A stretch of 32,886 nt of DNA from a virus: UHGV virus genome UHGV-1421593. One strand, 5' to 3'. This document shows, piece after piece, positions 6,159-12,246 of the stretch. The notes beneath the pieces were generated by a model. That model saw only the letters and a program-made list of their open reading frames with translations. It was not told the DNA's origin and ran no database searches. The translations under genes were made by a program, and so were the position numbers. Each line of letters starts with the position of its first letter. Positions within the stretch are counted from its first letter, which is position 1.

Positions 6159-6680
6159 ATGGCACGTAAAATTTACGTCAGTATGACTGATATGGCAAAA
6201 CGTTATGGTTATACCCTTAACGCTATTAAATCATGGAGAGCAGAAGGACTTCCTTATTCAGATAATCCAGCAGGAATACCAGAAAACGAAGGCACTTTAT
6301 GGATCGTTCAGAACAAAATTAATCCGATGCGCAATATGTCTGTTCGTGATGAATTCGAGAAAGAAAAACTTCGTGAACAGGTGGCGAAGGCTGACTTAGC
6401 AACTTATGCAGCGCAAGAAAAATCAGGTGAATTAATCCCTGTTGAGTTGGTGCAAGCTCAATTGAATCAGTTCTGTCAGTCTCTGAAAGATTCCATCAGG
6501 CTGATTCCGTCAAAACACGGTATCGAAATCATGGAGTCTGCTAATGATATCCAGGAGCTGAAAGAAAAACTCAAAGAGATTTTCAACAGAACATTGAATG
6601 AACTTGGTGAGTCGTTCGAACAAGACTTCGAACACGTTGACAAACCAGAAGAGAAAGAAGATAGTGAAATTGAACTTTAA
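6159..6680 (+). CDS. Nu1-like small terminase subunit candidate (winged-helix DNA-binding protein)
   Basis: Start placed at ATG 6159 with AAGGAG Shine-Dalgarno (the track's 6132 start is a TTG). N-terminus YVSMTDMAKRYGYTLNAIKSWRAEGLPY resembles the lambda Nu1 helix-turn-helix (KKQLADIFGASIRTIQNWQEQGMP), with an acidic C-terminus. Lies 5.5 kb from the large terminase gene. Confidence 0.4.
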   Translation: MARKIYVSMTDMAKRYGYTLNAIKSWRAEGLPYSDNPAGIPENEGTLWIVQNKINPMRNMSVRDEFEKEKLREQVAKADLATYAAQEKSGELIPVELVQAQLNQFCQSLKDSIRLIPSKHGIEIMESANDIQELKEKLKEIFNRTLNELGESFEQDFEHVDKPEEKEDSEIEL

Positions 6681-6702
6681 GGGAGTTTGCACTCCCTTTT
6701 TA
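6681..6702 (+). terminator. Rho-independent terminator (GGGAGT-ttgc-ACTCCC-TTTTT)
   Basis: Perfect 6-bp stem, 4-nt loop and T5 tract immediately after the stop codon. Confidence 0.7.
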
Positions 6703-6786
6703 ATTTCAAACAGTTACCATGTTTATGTATTTCATTTTTAAAATCGAATGAAGGAATTTAAAGCGATGGTGGGACCAAAATGTTTT

Positions 6787-6999
6787 TCATCGTGTTGCTC
6801 CTTTAAAGATTTGTTTCTGACGATTAATGAACATTCTTTCCTGCTTGAAATAGCCTGCTTCAATTTCGACTGACTCTGTTAGATGTTGCTTAGGGTATTT
6901 TTCGCGACTAGCGCAATGTACATTTTTTCGTTGTAACATAAAACTAATTTTCACATAATCGCGCTTGCAAATTACACACTTGTAATCATGGCCTGTCAT
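6787..6999 (-). CDS. Small Cys/His-containing protein (possible zinc-binding), unknown function
   Basis: 70 aa with strong AAGGAG Shine-Dalgarno 4 nt before the ATG; CVIC ... HCASREKYPKQH. Downstream of the reverse transcriptase on the same strand. Confidence 0.45.
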   Translation of the reverse strand: MTGHDYKCVICKRDYVKISFMLQRKNVHCASREKYPKQHLTESVEIEAGYFKQERMFINRQKQIFKGATR

Positions 7000-7186
7000 A
7001 TATACTCCTTTGTAAAACTATATTTATAGCCTCCATAACATTACAAAAGAATGATATTTTTAATTTGAGGTGTCGTCCAAATATGATTATATTCCAAAGT
7101 GACATTAATGAATATTGTCCCGACTACGGAATAGGGATTAAAATAAACCGTAACCGGGAAATATATTTATTATCCATTTTTAACCA

Positions 7187-8956
7187 TCATGGATAGTACA
7201 AATTTTTAAAGTGATTATTAATATCAACCATAGCATCAAGAATTGGTTTGAACAATGAAAAATCTATAGTCTGTCTATTTTCTCTGATAATATTGTTGGC
7301 AAACCTGTCTTTTCCAAAAGTAGTAGTGCTATCATGATTATTACTTTTATCAAAGGATTTACCGTTAATTGTCTTTGTCAGAACTTCATCTTTGAAAAAG
7401 TCTTCCATGCACGATTGTTTATCACCAGCCAATAGTGGAGTTAACAATACGTAGAGGTTATTCTCTAAATGTAAAAATTTATGTTTTCTTACGTCCTCTG
7501 ATTTTCTAGGCAGGTGAGAATATTCTTTGATTATATTATTAATAAAATCAGATGGCCCAGTGTCATTATCCAAAACAATTATTACTGGATTTTTAGGCGG
7601 TTGTCTTTCAAATTTCTTGCATTGTTCTCTATGCCTTCTAAAGAATCTTACATAGTCAGCAGCCCCACCGTAGAGGTCTAAAAAATATTCCTTTTTTGCG
7701 TTTGTTTTGAATAACGTAATATTTAAAATTCTATTCTTTGTTCTATCGTCAACTCTAACCAGAGCAGGATAACTTAAATACAAAGAATCAATTGCACATT
7801 TCAAATAAATTGGATCTGTTTTACCTTCTGTCAAAACTGTAGGCTTTATATTCCCATAAAAATACTTATAATGAAGAAAGTTACTGAATGCTGTCTCTCT
7901 TGAATTCAATTTGAGAGTAAAATTAATTCCAGTTTTCTTTAGCACATATTTTTCTGGGAGTGTATGTTTTTTAGCGTTAATGTTATTATACTTATCAAGC
8001 ATATCAATATAAACGAAGCGGCCTTCAAGTTCATTTAGAGTACCTTTTCGCGGTTTTCCACTAATATCCAAAAGGGTAAAATCCCCTTCTTTATAAAGTG
8101 CATGCGCCATAGCTCTGGTTTTTTTAATATAATCTTTATTGACATTTATTTTTTTGTTTACGGTTAAACCTGTTACTTCCTGCCTTGATGTATGCCGCAA
8201 TATTCTGGTCTTATTATTATTAATTTTAAATCCAGCTTTTTCAATTTCATTAACTAACAATGGTCCTAACTCGTTAGAATTCTCATTTATAACAATTGAG
8301 TCAGGAAACTGATTTTTGTTAGTTGAGAATGTTATATCATCTGCATATCGACTATAACTGCATCCATTAGAAAGTGCCAACTTTGACAATCTAATATCTA
8401 AAATATTACATATAAGATTGCTTATTACAGGAGAGCAAGGACTTCCTTGCGGAAGTTTTCCATCATAGCAAGCTATCTGCGCAATTATAGTTGCTATTGA
8501 TGGGTGCAAATTAAAATATTGATTCGCGATAAAATAACCACGGACCCTACCGAAATTAAATGTAGGGAAAAAATCCTCAAGATCAATATTTAAAACATTG
8601 GTTTTATTTCTATGTCTTTCTGCATTTGTTATTATTGTTTTATTTTTCTCAAATCCATGAGATAAGCTAGGGGTGATATTATTTGTTTTCCATATTTCGC
8701 TCTGACAAACATACAATAAATCTGATAAACGCCTTTGTATGTCTTTTAGTTTTTCAGTAGGCGCAAATATCTCTCTGTCACCTCCAGACTTCTTTTTTAT
8801 AATAAATCTTTCATATTGATGCTCAGGTCGTATTCTGTACAGGACATTAGTAAGAAAAGAAACTTTAATTTGAAGTAAGCGTGCAAACTCAAATTTGGTC
8901 TTGCATGACTTGAGTCTTTCTAAGTAGGAGGGAGTGAACATAATAGTAAATTCCAT
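7187..8956 (-). CDS. Retron-type reverse transcriptase with C-terminal Toprim domain (Retron-Eco2/Ec67-like architecture)
   Basis: RT motifs in order: GGDREIF...IQRRL (1/2), retron-specific NAxxH (TNAERH), LNIDLEDFFPTFN (A), QGSPCSPVISNL (B'), YSRYADDITFS (C, YADD), VTGL (retron VTG). C-terminal ~280 aa has Toprim signatures: TVLTEGKTDPIYL (Glu) and VIIVLDNDTGPSD (DxD). 589 aa. Confidence 0.88.
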   Translation of the reverse strand: MEFTIMFTPSYLERLKSCKTKFEFARLLQIKVSFLTNVLYRIRPEHQYERFIIKKKSGGDREIFAPTEKLKDIQRRLSDLLYVCQSEIWKTNNITPSLSHGFEKNKTIITNAERHRNKTNVLNIDLEDFFPTFNFGRVRGYFIANQYFNLHPSIATIIAQIACYDGKLPQGSPCSPVISNLICNILDIRLSKLALSNGCSYSRYADDITFSTNKNQFPDSIVINENSNELGPLLVNEIEKAGFKINNNKTRILRHTSRQEVTGLTVNKKINVNKDYIKKTRAMAHALYKEGDFTLLDISGKPRKGTLNELEGRFVYIDMLDKYNNINAKKHTLPEKYVLKKTGINFTLKLNSRETAFSNFLHYKYFYGNIKPTVLTEGKTDPIYLKCAIDSLYLSYPALVRVDDRTKNRILNITLFKTNAKKEYFLDLYGGAADYVRFFRRHREQCKKFERQPPKNPVIIVLDNDTGPSDFINNIIKEYSHLPRKSEDVRKHKFLHLENNLYVLLTPLLAGDKQSCMEDFFKDEVLTKTINGKSFDKSNNHDSTTTFGKDRFANNIIRENRQTIDFSLFKPILDAMVDINNHFKNLYYP

Positions 8957-11220: not shown

Positions 11221-11243
11221 AAAAAAGGGAGCACTAAGCTCCC
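11221..11243 (-). terminator. Rho-independent terminator (GGGAGC-actaa-GCTCCC), A-run/T-run flanked, potentially bidirectional
   Basis: Perfect 6-bp stem. On the minus strand it is followed by TTTTTT directly after the stop of the 59-aa ORF. Confidence 0.6.
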
Positions 11244-11248
11244 TTTTG

Positions 11249-11428
11249 TCATTTCAGACCAAGCACTAATGCTTGTTCAAGTTTTTTCTCAAGCAGAGTG
11301 TTTAATCCACTTTCGAAAAATTCAATCGCTTGAACGTCTGAGTCTGTTTTTAAGCGAACAGCGGCATCGTCAACTGTTAACTCTTCGGTCTTAACATCAC
11401 CGTTTTTATAAACCACATTAGCAATCAT
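11249..11428 (-). CDS. Small protein (59 aa), unknown function; absent from the supplied ORF track
   Basis: ATG at 11428 preceded by AAAGGAGAAAGC (strong Shine-Dalgarno). Translation MIANVVYKNGDVKTEELTVDDAAVRLKTDSDVQAIEFFESGLNTLLEKKLEQALVLGLK; stop is followed at once by the terminator hairpin. Confidence 0.45.
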   Translation of the reverse strand: MIANVVYKNGDVKTEELTVDDAAVRLKTDSDVQAIEFFESGLNTLLEKKLEQALVLGLK

Positions 11429-11666
11429 GCTTTCTCCTTTGTTGCTAAAAAATAATAACCGAATGATATCACTTGTTCAATTTTTCTTTCAATCAAATAA
11501 GTATCCGATGAATAGTCGGCTCTCTAAACTAGCAGGTATGAAATAGTTCCTTAATTCTGAACTTCCTCACTTTGCTTCCTATTTAATATTGCAATTTTAA
11601 ATCTAGTGTAATTAATTTAGCTACAAACTTGCATTTATTATACATTTAAAAAATCGCCTCCATTCG

Positions 11667-12101
11667 TTAGGCATTCTCAGTTTCACTCATTTCTCCTTTA
11701 GTGCTATTCACACAGCGAAGAAACTGATCCCTCTGATACGCGGCAGTTTTGTCTGACATCTGTTTTTTGAATAACTCAAAATCCCCCTCTGTACGTTTAA
11801 AAATAATCATGCTAATCGCAGATGGTTTTTTATTAGCCGATTTGCTAGCAAGAAGTTTTTCGATGTTATCGAATCCGAAAGCCTGATTCACGATTCGTTG
11901 TGCTTCAACAGCATCGACAACTTCAACCGTATTTTCAGCTTTAACTTCTTCAACAACTGTATATTCCTCGATGTTAGCTTTAACACGACGAACAACAGAA
12001 CGAGGAACATCGTATTTTTCAGCAAGCTTACTCTCTGACATATCAGTACCAGCGTTTAATTCAGAAGCAATTCGGTTTTCAACAGTCAGTTCAGTTTTCA
12101 T
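11667..12101 (-). CDS. Helix-turn-helix DNA-binding protein (putative regulator)
   Basis: Start at Met (MKTELTV) with AGGAG Shine-Dalgarno 7 nt upstream. Helix-turn-helix segment SESKLAEKYDVPRSVVRRV. Divergent from the large terminase gene. Confidence 0.5.
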   Translation of the reverse strand: MKTELTVENRIASELNAGTDMSESKLAEKYDVPRSVVRRVKANIEEYTVVEEVKAENTVEVVDAVEAQRIVNQAFGFDNIEKLLASKSANKKPSAISMIIFKRTEGDFELFKKQMSDKTAAYQRDQFLRCVNSTKGEMSETENA

Positions 12102-12246
12102 TGTCGTTCTCCTGTGTTTTGTTGGAACAGACTTTAACAGGCGGATATCCAGGTGCAAGAACTCTTAGAAATAATTTTATGGAGGTTTTCATAAATACAG
12201 ACAGAGAAATGAAATCCATTTTGGGTTCATCCACTTAGGGCTGATT

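What the first reader, a model, noticed from the sequence alone, without database searches (positions are those of the whole stretch)
6159..12246. Nu1-like small terminase candidate separated from the large terminase by a 5.5-kb opposite-strand cargo island
GpA-type large terminase genes normally follow their Nu1-type small subunit gene directly. Here the Nu1-like gene (6159-6680) ends in a terminator, and the large terminase (12247) is preceded by minus-strand genes (Zn-finger-like ORF, RT-Toprim, coiled-coil protein, helix-turn-helix proteins, 59-aa ORF) and the repeat-rich non-coding region. Either an insertion split the packaging operon or the Nu1-like protein is a different DNA-binding protein and the real small subunit lies elsewhere.
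Basis: inference. Interest (0 to 1): 0.55.

Follow-up and report, generated by a model that had tools for sequence, protein, structure and literature searches.

The report
Small and large terminase genes unlinked
In a little-known family of about 34-kb prophages of E. coli and its relatives, the two DNA-packaging genes are always 4-6 kb apart with a conserved backward-reading block between them, and the retron is only a 2.4-kb passenger in one variable slot of that block, so no recent insertion split a packaging operon.

Summary
The gene at 6159-6680 (+) ends in a terminator. The GpA-type large terminase gene starts at 12247. The 5,566 bases between them hold six minus-strand ORFs and about 1 kb of conserved non-coding DNA.

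The 173-aa protein is a genuine but very divergent Nu1-type small terminase:
- PHROG 57, E 6e-21, full length.
- hhalign against lambda Nu1, E 1e-4.
- Pfam Phage_Nu1 is the commonest sub-threshold hit, in 14 of 30 family members.
- It has a MerR/Nu1-like winged helix.
- No other ORF in the element resembles a small terminase.

All 17 related loci show the same 4.2-6.1 kb gap. They come from E. coli, Enterobacter, Klebsiella, Citrobacter, Pantoea and Serratia, plus a 30.6-kb circular phage assembly. The gap has a recurring core: a small HTH protein, a coiled-coil protein with an FmdB zinc ribbon, a hairpin-rich control region, and in one clade a GntR-like HTH.

The Ec67-family retron (RT-Toprim plus msr/msd) fills one variable slot, between the coiled-coil gene and its zinc-ribbon partner. 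A sister E. coli prophage at the same chromosomal site has three unrelated genes there instead.

My best reading, which is inference, is that the block is the phage's early or control arm. This is an unusual but ancestral genome layout of moderate interest.

The parts
5969..6158 (+). Conserved unique cis element upstream of terS. It contains ATAGTTACTCTGGG, the hairpin CCGAG-ATGTTTCGAGCG-CTCGG with an invariant GATGTTTCG, and TTCAGTTCA. It is a candidate cos site or late control site (inference).
   Evidence: Homology with relatives resumes at about 5969 whatever cargo lies upstream. The motifs are invariant in 12 relatives of both clades and recognisable in the distant DCP80-associated phage. 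The motif occurs only once in the window.
6159..6680 (+). terS: a divergent Nu1-type small terminase subunit of 173 aa, with an N-terminal winged HTH, long helices and an acidic tail.
   Evidence: PHROG 57, E 6.4e-21, residues 5-169. hhalign against lambda Nu1: probability 56%, E 1.1e-4, 111 columns. PF07471 Phage_Nu1 is hit by 14 of 30 members, best E 8.7e-4. AF2 model pLDDT 74.5. Foldseek top hit is 6hn7_B, a 72-residue chain of the RppC packaging-redirection entry, followed by MerR-family regulators.
6679..6698 (+). Intrinsic terminator-like hairpin ending the terS transcription unit. It lies between the convergent genes terS and orf70.
6787..6999 (-). Degenerate FmdB-type zinc-ribbon ORF (70 aa). 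It is the last gene of the leftward block and the partner of the coiled-coil protein.
   Evidence: Homologues in relatives hit Zn_ribbon_8/TIGR02605 (E 1e-10 to 2e-12). The C-terminal tail NRxKQxFKxAxR is conserved. In P0062, P0066 and P0070 this domain is fused to the coiled-coil protein. The window copy has lost the second CxxC.
7187..8956 (-). Retron reverse transcriptase fused to a Toprim nuclease (Ec67/Eco2 family, type I-C). This is strain-specific cargo.
   Evidence: PADLOC RT-Toprim_I-C, E 7e-216. RVT_1, E 4e-23. PGAP names it 'retron Ec67 family RNA-directed DNA polymerase/endonuclease'. It is absent from all related loci except copies of this same element.
8973..9183 (-). Retron non-coding RNA region (msr-msd, approximately 9102-8973), closed by a 12-bp stem GGCACAUGCAGG/CCUGCAUGUGC. 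A promoter-like site lies at 9183-9156.
   Evidence: Fold z-score -3.15. Promoter scan. Nucleotide homology with Ec67-family retrons of about 528 other E. coli genomes extends from the RT to window 9120. Coordinates are approximate and no Rfam family matched.
9387..10127 (-). Coiled-coil protein with a confidently predicted N-terminal alpha/beta domain and no detectable relatives outside this phage family. It is a conserved core gene of the leftward block. Alignment with relatives suggests the true start may be about 18 codons downstream.
10075..10233 (-). Small HTH protein (52 aa; the ORF extends to 10269). It is the first gene of the leftward operon.
   Evidence: Conserved in relatives at 37-82% identity, with analogous 47-64 aa HTH ORFs in the divergent clade. 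Weak match to the resolvase-type HTH of phrog_125.
10234..11214 (.). Conserved control region. It holds tandem leftward promoter-like sites (10437-10408 and 10359-10331), three CGCATCGAT(GCG) palindromes (10470-10513), GC-rich mini-palindromes GCGCGAAGCGCG/GGGCGAAGCCC/GCGCTTCGCGCG, GTAGCGA repeats and TTATCCA motifs. It is a candidate origin or regulatory region (inference).
   Evidence: 56-69% overall nucleotide identity across the clade, with near-invariant blocks, extending to Serratia and K. aerogenes. In Citrobacter the leader part is found inverted in front of a plus-strand HTH gene. RNAalifold gives a covariation term of 0.09, so there is no support for a structured RNA. Promoter and terminator scan.
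11249..11428 (-). 59-aa ORF of unknown function, with its own promoter-like site (11492-11463) and a terminator-like hairpin (about 11245-11215).
   Evidence: Homologues in L003 and L025 and in L059.
11667..12158 (-). GntR/psq-like winged-HTH protein (144 aa by PGAP), divergent from terL. It is present in one clade only.
   Evidence: Pfam GntR E 1.2e-4, below the Pfam cut-off. PGAP calls the homologue in strain 2017.06.05CC a 'GntR family transcriptional regulator'. It is absent from L007, L008, L012, L036, L037 and L051, which have homing endonucleases upstream of terL instead.
12159..12246 (+). Conserved terL upstream region (...TTTCATAAATACAG...). It is a candidate terL promoter, which would make terL a transcription start independent of terS (inference).
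   Evidence: Conserved in WIN, L003, L005 and L053. No strong sigma-70 consensus match was found.
12247..14130 (+). terL: GpA-type large terminase, the first gene of the head-tail arm.
   Evidence: PF05876 E 1.5e-60 and PF20454 E 1.3e-45. phrog_15 E 6e-141. 22% identity to lambda gpA over the full length, E 2e-22.

Best explanation
What the window is. The window is a roughly 34-kb low-GC temperate siphophage-like prophage. It is integrated by a large serine recombinase between ybiT and ldtB of E. coli (strain MS 115-1 type).

Shown:
- The gene at 6159-6680 encodes a real, strongly diverged Nu1-type small terminase, and 12247-14130 encodes its GpA-type large partner.
- In this whole phage family the two genes are never adjacent.
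- terS is the last gene of the long rightward arm (terL, head, tail, integration module, lysis, cargo, terS) and ends at its own terminator.
- terL starts the next rightward unit 4-6 kb further on, behind a conserved upstream sequence.
- Between them lies a leftward-transcribed block. Its recurring core is a hairpin- and palindrome-rich control region of about 1 kb with tandem leftward promoter-like sites, a small HTH protein, and a coiled-coil protein that works with, and in some relatives is fused to, an FmdB zinc ribbon.

Inferred:
- This block is the phage's early, regulatory or replication arm. In the 30.6-kb circular relative assembled with phage DCP80 it is the only non-structural part of the genome.
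- The deeply conserved single-copy element about 150 nt upstream of terS is probably cos, placed as in lambda.
- The terminase holoenzyme would then assemble from separately transcribed subunits. TerS would bind next to its own gene, and packaging would run terS, early block, terL and onward.

Variable slots and the retron. The block has variable slots. In this window the slot between the coiled-coil gene and its zinc-ribbon partner holds a complete Ec67/Eco2-family retron: promoter, msr-msd and RT-Toprim, about 2.4 kb. This is a prophage-borne anti-phage passenger. It did not create the terS-terL separation.
For: TerS identity:
- PHROG 57 'terminase small subunit', E 6.4e-21, residues 5-169 of 173.
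- hhalign of the 30-member family profile against lambda Nu1: E 1.1e-4, covering the winged HTH and the following helix.
- Phage_Nu1 is the most frequent Pfam hit among members, 14 of 30, best E 8.7e-4.
- The AF2 model has a winged HTH plus long helices. Its best PDB match is chain 6hn7_B of the RppC packaging-redirection entry, followed by MerR-family regulators.
- No other ORF of the element matches a small terminase.

Family-wide separation (TerS to TerL gaps):
- 4.4-6.1 kb in 9 viral-contig loci.
- 5.2 and 5.8 kb in Serratia, 5.3 and 4.6 kb in Pantoea, 4.2 kb in Klebsiella, 6.0 kb in Citrobacter, 5.1 kb in K. aerogenes.
- 5.7 kb in a retron-less sister prophage with an identical left arm in E. 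coli 2017.06.05CC.
- About 6.1 kb on the circular map of the DCP80-associated phage, whose TerS homologue scores hhalign probability 99.3%, E 3e-20.

Conserved core:
- The coiled-coil protein, small HTH, zinc ribbon and control region recur across loci.
- Coiled-coil and zinc-ribbon fusions exist in three protein clusters.

Retron as cargo:
- It is present only in this element.
- The slot is empty in L024 and L025, where the zinc-ribbon and coiled-coil genes are 290 and 167 nt apart.
- Other genes occupy the slot in L003, L005 and L059.
- The retron is complete: PADLOC E 7e-216 and an msr/msd fold with z -3.15.

Transcription units: terminator after terS; conserved sequence upstream of terL.

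cos candidate: conserved in 12 relatives and in DCP80, and single-copy in the window.
Against: - No family member passes Pfam's curated Nu1 threshold. The window protein itself gives no Pfam hit.
- The fold-search E-values are weak (0.59).
- The cos assignment rests only on conservation and on analogy with lambda. No contig end or read evidence supports it.
- The hairpin-rich region could instead be cos or an RNA.
- In Citrobacter the HTH operon is inverted and its content differs, so the core is mosaic rather than strictly conserved.
- Several copies carry IS3 insertions in structural genes, so some members may be defective.
Confidence: 0.72

Rival explanations
1. A mobile cargo or defence island (retron plus neighbours) inserted recently between adjacent terS and terL genes and split a lambda-like packaging operon.
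For: - Lower GC (0.30-0.35) over 6.5-9.5 kb than in the flanks.
- Opposite strand to the flanking genes.
- The retron is a known mobile passenger.
- terS ends in a terminator.
- Variable content among relatives.
Against: - All 17 related loci, including a retron-less sister element at the same chromosomal site and a relative whose TerS is about 27% and TerL about 52% identical, have a 4.2-6.1 kb gap.
- The gap contains conserved genes and a conserved control region.
- Only about 2.4 kb is specific to this element.
- An ancient, family-founding rearrangement remains possible but would not be a 'cargo island'.
Confidence: 0.08
2. The 6159-6680 product is not a terminase subunit. It would be a MerR/Xis-like DNA-binding protein, for example a recombination directionality factor for the serine integrase or a late regulator, and the element would either use an unrecognised small subunit or none.
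For: - No Pfam or NCBIfam hit above threshold.
- PGAP and every source call all homologues 'hypothetical'.
- Fold hits include MerR regulators and excisionases.
- The gene is not next to terL.
Against: - Full-length PHROG 57 match, E 6e-21.
- Nu1 alignment extends beyond the HTH into the helical region.
- Phage_Nu1 is the top recurrent Pfam family.
- At 173 aa, with long helices and an acidic tail, it is far larger than a Xis-type protein.
- It is strictly syntenic across the family, including the integrase-less DCP80-associated phage, where a directionality factor would be pointless.
- No alternative small-terminase candidate exists.
Confidence: 0.1
3. The physical genome ends (cos) lie in the hairpin-rich non-coding region 10234-11214 rather than upstream of terS, so terL and terS sit at opposite ends of the virion chromosome. 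Alternatively, that region encodes a large structured RNA needed for packaging or regulation.
For: - The region is conserved across genera, with near-invariant blocks and many GC mini-hairpins and palindromes.
- The minus strand folds more stably than the plus strand, -293 against -250 kcal/mol.
- One hairpin swaps a UUCG loop for a GCAA loop (minus-strand reading) with a compensatory stem change.
- The divergent clade and DCP80 have analogous hairpin-rich regions.
Against: - RNAalifold covariation term is about 0 over 7 distinct sequences.
- No Rfam family matched.
- Hairpin loop orientation is mixed within and between clades, which favours DNA palindromes.
- The left part of the region is a promoter and leader for the HTH operon; it travels with that operon when inverted in Citrobacter.
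- The DCP80 contig start is an assembly artefact, a 111-bp overlap, and not a genome end.
Confidence: 0.1

Closest known systems
Phage lambda terminase system (Nu1 + gpA, with cos upstream of nu1)
   Same: The large subunit has the GpA ATPase and nuclease domains and aligns with lambda gpA over its full length. The small subunit has a Nu1-like winged HTH followed by helices. The portal is lambda-type Phage_portal_2. A conserved single-copy element lies just upstream of terS, where lambda has cosN/cosB.
   Different: In lambda, nu1 and A overlap by 26 nt. Here they are 4.2-6.1 kb apart in every family member, with an opposite-strand block between them. TerS is too diverged to pass Pfam's Nu1 threshold. 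cos has not been demonstrated.
P2/186-like phages: unlinked terminase genes and cos-adjacent accessory hotspots
   Same: [quoted passage not shown] P2 and P4 carry defence hotspots next to cos (PMC9122126). Here an Ec67-family retron also lies just beyond the terminator of a packaging gene, and a TIR gene lies between the lysis genes and the candidate cos. From my own knowledge, P2 terS (M) and terL (P) are also unlinked.
   Different: This is an unrelated phage type: Nu1/GpA terminase, a protease-capsid fusion, siphovirus-type tail genes and a serine integrase. The retron lies at the 3' end of a conserved leftward operon, between a coiled-coil gene and its zinc-ribbon partner, and not in the 186 cos-terminator gap.
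Retron-Eco2 (Ec67), type I-C RT-Toprim retron
   Same: A single RT-Toprim fusion (PADLOC RT-Toprim_I-C, E 7e-216) with an upstream msr-msd closed by an inverted repeat. PGAP names it the Ec67 family. Published work describes Eco2 as a minimal anti-phage retron whose effector is the fused Toprim nuclease (PMC12405507, PMC12916289).
   Different: It is only about 73% nucleotide-identical to the common Ec67-family retron found in about 528 other E. coli genomes. It is carried by a different prophage family. Its defence activity has not been tested.
Lambdoid 'moron' positions between the lysis cassette and cos/terminase
   Same: Variable accessory genes lie between the endolysin and terS: a TIR/PDC-S35 protein here, a PIN protein in Pantoea, and a 754-aa protein in Klebsiella. 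That such moron positions are known in lambdoid phages is from my own knowledge.
   Different: This applies only to the slot upstream of terS. It does not explain the conserved block downstream of terS.

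Membership tests
Nu1-type small terminase (Pfam PF07471 Phage_Nu1; lambda gpNu1) | Sequence membership: a score above the curated Pfam gathering threshold. | tested here: not met
   The window protein gives no Pfam hit at E<=0.01. Fourteen of 30 family members hit PF07471 only sub-threshold, best E 8.7e-4. It is a remote homologue, not a Pfam member.
Nu1-type small terminase (Pfam PF07471 Phage_Nu1; lambda gpNu1) | An N-terminal MerR-like winged HTH followed by a helical self-association region, alignable with lambda Nu1. 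| tested here: met
   hhalign against lambda Nu1: probability 56%, E 1.1e-4, 111 columns. The AF2 model has a winged HTH in residues 1-54 plus long helices. Foldseek top hits are 6hn7_B and MerR-family regulators, at weak E-values.
Nu1-type small terminase (Pfam PF07471 Phage_Nu1; lambda gpNu1) | Partnered with a GpA-type large terminase in the same genome. | tested here: met
   A GpA-type TerL is present in the window and in every relative whose locus reaches it.
Nu1-type small terminase (Pfam PF07471 Phage_Nu1; lambda gpNu1) | Gene immediately upstream of, and co-transcribed with, the large-subunit gene. | tested here: not met
   The gap is 5,566 nt with a terminator after terS. The gap is 4.2-6.1 kb in all 17 relatives.
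Nu1-type small terminase (Pfam PF07471 Phage_Nu1; lambda gpNu1) | Binds cosB repeats and the N-terminus of the large subunit, and is required for cos cleavage and packaging. | not testable with these tools
   This needs biochemistry or genetics.
PHROG 57 (terminase small subunit) | A significant full-length profile match. | tested here: met
   E 6.4e-21, 76 bits, residues 5-169 against profile positions 11-189 of 199.
Retron type I-C (Ec67/Eco2, RT-Toprim) | A retron-clade RT fused to a C-terminal Toprim domain. | tested here: met
   Four PADLOC RT-Toprim_I-C models at E 7e-216 to 8e-177, full length.
Retron type I-C (Ec67/Eco2, RT-Toprim) | An adjacent msr-msd non-coding RNA with flanking inverted repeats upstream of the RT. 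| tested here: inconclusive
   A 12-bp closing stem and a fold z-score of -3.15, plus homology to the regions upstream of other Ec67-family RTs. No Rfam match was found, and the branching G and msDNA were not determined.
Defence or cargo island inserted into an operon | Present in some and absent from other otherwise collinear relatives, with adjacent flanks at the empty site. | tested here: not met
   This holds only for the 2.4-kb retron: the slot is empty in L024 and L025 and holds different genes in L059. It does not hold for the 5.5-kb interval as a whole.

The most novel reading that the evidence does not exclude
The block between terS and terL is a self-contained, previously undescribed minimal early module. 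The hairpin-, palindrome- and GATC-rich 1-kb region would be a new kind of phage replication origin or control locus (or would yield a large RNA). The family-specific coiled-coil plus zinc-ribbon protein, whose N-terminal domain has no fold match, would be its initiator or regulator. The slots at the 3' end of this operon and just upstream of terS would be a new prophage defence hotspot, whose unassigned cassettes are undescribed defence systems. One example is the three-gene cassette that replaces the retron in L003/L059. One of its proteins carries an RNYFQH (Rx4H) motif.
Probability: 0.25. Interest if true: 0.6.

Novelty: new variant of a known kind. Interest (0 to 1): 0.4.

Why it matters
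Annotation. Small terminases are usually found by their adjacency to terL. Here every one of about 60 homologue clusters is labelled 'hypothetical protein', and PGAP does not name the gene. This family shows that a lambda-type Nu1/gpA pair can be stably unlinked, so adjacency-based terS calling, and pac/cos prediction built on it, will miss such cases.

Biology. The family is a compact set of temperate phages (about 30-34 kb) in Enterobacterales. Their whole non-structural complement appears to be a 3-4 kb leftward block of unknown proteins plus a conserved hairpin-rich region. That makes it a tractable system for finding a new replication or regulation module.

Defence mining. The variable slots on either side of terS carry a type I-C retron, a TIR (PDC-S35) protein, a PIN (PDC-S34) protein and several unassigned cassettes. 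They could be mined in the way the P2/P4 cos-adjacent hotspots were.

Tried and rejected
- Near-identity and protein searches of terS and of the whole interval against 50,697 phage records found nothing for terS. The only useful phage record, DCP80, proved to be a chimeric deposit. Its first 30.6 kb is a circular assembly with a 111-bp overlap, so its start is not a genome end and says nothing about cos.
- The genome-contig scan with the TerS profile returned a single MAG contig.
- The structured-RNA idea for 10234-11214 did not hold up. There was no Rfam hit. The minus strand folds better than the plus strand, but RNAalifold on 7 distinct sequences gave a covariation term of 0.09. Pattern scans of viral and metagenome collections added only 4 loci beyond contigs already in hand, too few for a covariance model. 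I therefore treat the region as DNA-level signals.
- PADLOC and Pfam on cargo genes of relatives gave no assignment except a PIN protein (PDC-S34), LprI and homing endonucleases. My reading of Rx4H (HEPN-like) motifs in two of these proteins has no profile support.
- I looked for a second copy of the terS-upstream motif, as a repeated late promoter would have. There is none.
- I looked for inverted repeats flanking the block 2544-4285, which is inverted in some relatives. Only a weak pair (74%) was found.

Full report
**1. What the window is**

The window matches, at 100% identity over the region searched (5900-12400), a roughly 34-kb low-GC (about 38%) element of E. coli MS 115-1 (NZ_CP146665.1). 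The element lies between ybiT and ldtB.

Its gene content, in order:
- A large serine recombinase at 114-1619, which opens the element.
- Two distal-tail genes on the minus strand.
- A lysozyme.
- A small ORF followed by a TIR (PDC-S35) protein.
- The candidate terS.
- The minus-strand interval that is the subject of the finding.
- terL, a lambda-type portal, an S78 protease-capsid fusion, tail genes, an endonuclease VII, and a tape-measure gene at the right end.

No ORF matches a known replication protein or a CI-type repressor.

**2. Check of the observation**

- terS is 6159-6680. Its ATG follows an AAGGAGA site, and the start is conserved in 12 relatives.
- A terminator-like hairpin with a T-run lies at 6679-6698.
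- terL is 12247-14130, with GpA_ATPase and GpA_nuclease domains.
- The gap is 5,566 nt.
- The gap holds a 70-aa zinc-ribbon-like ORF, an RT-Toprim, a coiled-coil protein, a small HTH, a 59-aa ORF and a GntR/psq-like HTH, all on the minus strand. It also holds about 1 kb of palindrome-rich non-coding DNA.
- In lambda, nu1 and A overlap, so the layout here departs from the prototype.

**3. Is the 173-aa protein a small terminase?**

Evidence for:
- It matches PHROG 57 'terminase small subunit' over residues 5-169 (E 6.4e-21), and more weakly PHROG 141, which has the same annotation.
- A 30-member family alignment aligns with lambda Nu1 over 111 columns, covering the winged HTH and the next helix (hhalign E 1.1e-4, probability 56%).
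- When each member is scanned against Pfam, Phage_Nu1 is the family hit by the most members: 14 of 30, best E 8.7e-4.
- The AF2 model (pLDDT 74.5) has a winged HTH, long helices and a disordered acidic tail.
- Its best PDB match is chain B of 6HN7, a 72-residue chain of the RppC packaging-redirection entry, followed by MerR-family regulators. A profile search of PDB sequences also ranks RppC first (E 0.088).
- No other ORF of the element hits a small-terminase family.

Evidence against:
- The window protein has no Pfam or NCBIfam hit.
- All homologues in public sources are labelled 'hypothetical'.

I conclude that it is a remote Nu1-type TerS. It does not meet Pfam's membership threshold.

**4. 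Is the separation caused by an insertion?**

I collected related loci from several sources:
- IMG/VR viral contigs.
- Contigs that encode TerS homologues.
- Complete E. coli genomes.
- One phage record.

TerS-to-TerL gaps in the loci that hold both genes:

| Locus or source | Gap |
|---|---|
| Nine viral-contig loci | 4.4-6.1 kb |
| Serratia | 5.2 and 5.8 kb |
| Pantoea | 5.3 and 4.6 kb |
| Klebsiella pneumoniae | 4.2 kb |
| Citrobacter | 6.0 kb |
| K. aerogenes | 5.1 kb |
| E. coli 2017.06.05CC | 5.7 kb |

No locus has adjacent genes.

The 2017.06.05CC element has the same left-arm gene order as the window. Its TIR protein and neighbouring small protein are identical in accession to those of MS 115-1. 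It has no retron: three plus-strand genes occupy that place.

The deposited record of 'phage DCP80' is a chimera.
- Its first 30,599 bp close on themselves through a 111-bp overlap.
- They encode a TerL 52% identical to the window's.
- They encode a TerS homologue at 25760-26251 (hhalign probability 99.3%, E 3e-20).
- On that circle, terS and terL are again separated. Between them lie minus-strand small genes (an HNH endonuclease, two small HTH proteins, a 243-aa coiled-coil protein) and about 2.9 kb of non-coding DNA.

That condition is met.

**5. Anatomy of the interval**

The recurring order is:
- terS, then its terminator.
- A zinc-ribbon ORF on the minus strand.
- The coiled-coil protein on the minus strand.
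- A small HTH protein on the minus strand.
- A control region of about 1-1.6 kb.
- A variable set of genes.
- terL.

*Zinc-ribbon ORF.* In relatives it is a clear FmdB-type zinc ribbon (Zn_ribbon_8, E about 1e-10 to 2e-12).

*Coiled-coil and zinc-ribbon partnership.*
- In three protein clusters (Kluyvera P0062, P0066, E. coli P0070) the zinc ribbon is fused to the C-terminus of the coiled-coil protein. The two therefore form one functional unit.
- In L024 and L025 the two genes are 290 and 167 nt apart.
- In the window they are 2,387 nt apart, with the retron between them.
- The window's zinc ribbon has lost its second CxxC.

*Coiled-coil protein.*
- The family is tiny: 15 clusters among 1.84 billion representatives.
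- Its N-terminal domain is predicted confidently (pLDDT about 90).

*Three variable slots.*
- Between terS and the zinc ribbon: small ORFs, or a 242-aa gene in L007.
- Between the zinc ribbon and the coiled-coil gene: the retron here, three genes in L003, L005 and L059.
- Between the control region and terL: NUMOD3 or HNH_3 homing endonucleases in relatives, and other genes. In the window clade the 59-aa ORF and the GntR-like HTH also lie between the control region and terL.

*Mosaicism.* In Citrobacter the leader and HTH operon are inverted and the content differs. The block is therefore mosaic, as regulatory regions of temperate phages often are.

**6. The non-coding region 10234-11214**

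- It is conserved across E. coli-type elements, K. aerogenes and Serratia, with nearly invariant blocks.
- The part next to the HTH gene carries two conserved leftward promoter-like sites. It moves with the operon in Citrobacter.
- Further out are three CGCATCGAT(GCG) palindromes, several GC mini-palindromes (GCGCGAAGCGCG and GGGCGAAGCCC, plus one inverted copy GCGCTTCGCGCG), GTAGCGA repeats, TTATCCA motifs and, in relatives, many GATC sites.

I tested a structured-RNA reading.
- The minus strand folds more stably than the plus strand.
- One hairpin shows a compensatory stem change together with a UUCG-to-GCAA loop swap.
- RNAalifold on seven distinct sequences gave a covariation term of 0.09.
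- Rfam has no match.
- Loop orientation is mixed.

I therefore read these as DNA-level signals, meaning operators or an origin. That reading is inference.

**7. Candidate cos**

- Homology among relatives resumes at about 5969, whatever cargo lies upstream.
- The 190 nt before terS contain motifs invariant in 12 relatives of both clades: ATAGTTACTYTGGG, CGRGATGTTTCGR within a covarying hairpin, and TTCARTTCA.
- The same signature is recognisable upstream of the DCP80-type terS, although that protein is only about 27% identical.
- The motif is single-copy in the window.
- By analogy with lambda, where cosN and cosB lie just upstream of nu1, this is the most likely cos. It is unproven.

**8. The retron**

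- RT-Toprim at 7187-8956 matches PADLOC RT-Toprim_I-C (E 7e-216).
- The upstream 210 nt fold into a structure closed by a 12-bp stem (z -3.15).
- Nucleotide homology with the Ec67-family retrons of about 528 other E. coli genomes (73% identity) covers the RT and runs to window 9120.
- Published work describes Eco2 as a minimal anti-phage retron whose effector is the fused Toprim nuclease (PMC12405507, PMC12916289).
- The classical Ec67 and Ec86 retrons lie between cos and the terminator of a packaging gene of a 186-like prophage (PMC6868368). P2 and P4 defence hotspots are cos-adjacent (PMC9122126).
- The position here, just beyond the terS terminator of an unrelated prophage type, is a parallel to those cases and not a case of homology.

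**9. Most likely working model**

Shown:
- terS and terL are real.
- They are stably unlinked.
- The retron is cargo.

Inferred:
- The block between the two genes is the early or control arm.
- terL has its own start behind a conserved upstream sequence.
- TerS and TerL assemble after separate expression.
- TerS acts at the conserved site next to its own gene.

My confidence is about 0.9 in the shown part and about 0.5 in the inferred part.

**10. Verdict**

This is a family-wide variant of the lambda-type packaging-gene layout, found in a prophage family I did not find annotated or described in the sources searched. It is of moderate interest. It is not an insertion event.

Noticed in passing
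window 4626-5821: A small YuaX-like ORF (4626-4925) and a TIR-domain protein (4925-5821; Pfam CAP12-PCTIR_TIR E 5e-38; PADLOC candidate system PDC-S35 E 1e-70) lie between the lysozyme and the conserved element upstream of terS. This position is variable in relatives: a PIN protein (PDC-S34) in Pantoea, a 754-aa protein in Klebsiella, and other genes elsewhere. It is therefore a second cargo slot.
   Followed up: partly
window 2544-4285: The block made of the DUF2163 tail protein, the distal tail protein and the lysozyme is inverted as a unit in some relatives compared with this window. The inverted form occurs in Pantoea L036 and L051 and in K. aerogenes L055. In L005, L024 and L029 the lysozyme is likewise on the opposite strand. 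The window orientation is shared by Klebsiella L037 and Citrobacter L053. Only a weak flanking inverted repeat (74%) is present in the window. Whether the segment is actively invertible is unknown.
   Followed up: partly
window 114-1619 and 30373-32772: The serine-recombinase integration module sits between the tape-measure gene (the right end of the prophage) and the distal-tail genes (the left end). Integration therefore splits the tail gene set, and on the excised circle attP and int lie inside the tail region.
   Followed up: no
L022 (NZ_CP146665.1) 17291-18411; L059 17406-18634: In the complete genome of E. coli MS 115-1 an IS3 element interrupts terL, whereas the window's terL is intact. 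In strain 2017.06.05CC an IS3 interrupts the protease-capsid gene. At least some copies of this prophage family are therefore defective.
   Followed up: no
L058 (PQ671644.1) 1-30710: The GenBank record 'Escherichia phage DCP80' (classified in Straboviridae) is a chimera. Its first 30,599 bp are a circularly assembled Nu1/GpA-type phage of this family without an integrase (111-bp overlap, 1-111 = 30600-30710). T4-like sequence (motA, rIIA) follows.
   Followed up: yes
window 10470-10513 and 10629-10758: The perfect 12-bp palindrome CGCATCGATGCG and two related copies, together with an inverted pair GCGCGAAGCGC...GCGCTTCGCGC flanking an AT-rich spacer, are nearly invariant from E. coli to Serratia. 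No function is assigned.
   Followed up: partly
L003 4730-6528 / L059 6684-8482; L007 5290-6018: The cassettes that occupy variable slots in relatives have no PADLOC or Pfam assignment. These are three genes in the retron's place in L003/L059 and a 242-aa gene between terS and the zinc ribbon in L007. The 240-aa and 242-aa proteins contain Rx4H motifs (RNYFQH and RNIMVH) reminiscent of HEPN nucleases. This is my reading of the sequence and is not supported by any profile.
   Followed up: partly
L007 9377-9883, L003 8388-9002, L036 15269-15826, L037 14160-14666; small ORFs just upstream of terL in L007, L008, L037, L024, L055: Free-standing homing endonucleases (HNH_3 or NUMOD3 type) sit directly upstream of terL in many relatives. 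Several relatives also have a 41-45 aa hydrophobic ORF ending in a helix that overlaps the terL start. The window has neither.
   Followed up: no
window 28100-28576: An endonuclease VII gene (phrog_423, E 4e-36) is embedded among the tail genes. It is also present in the DCP80-associated relative.
   Followed up: no
window 3191-3892 vs 3800-4285: The longest ORF call for the distal tail protein (233 aa, minus strand) overlaps the start of the lysozyme gene by 93 nt. Gene callers use a shorter 187-aa version (7033-7596 in L014). The N-terminal 46 codons of the long ORF are probably not translated.
   Followed up: no
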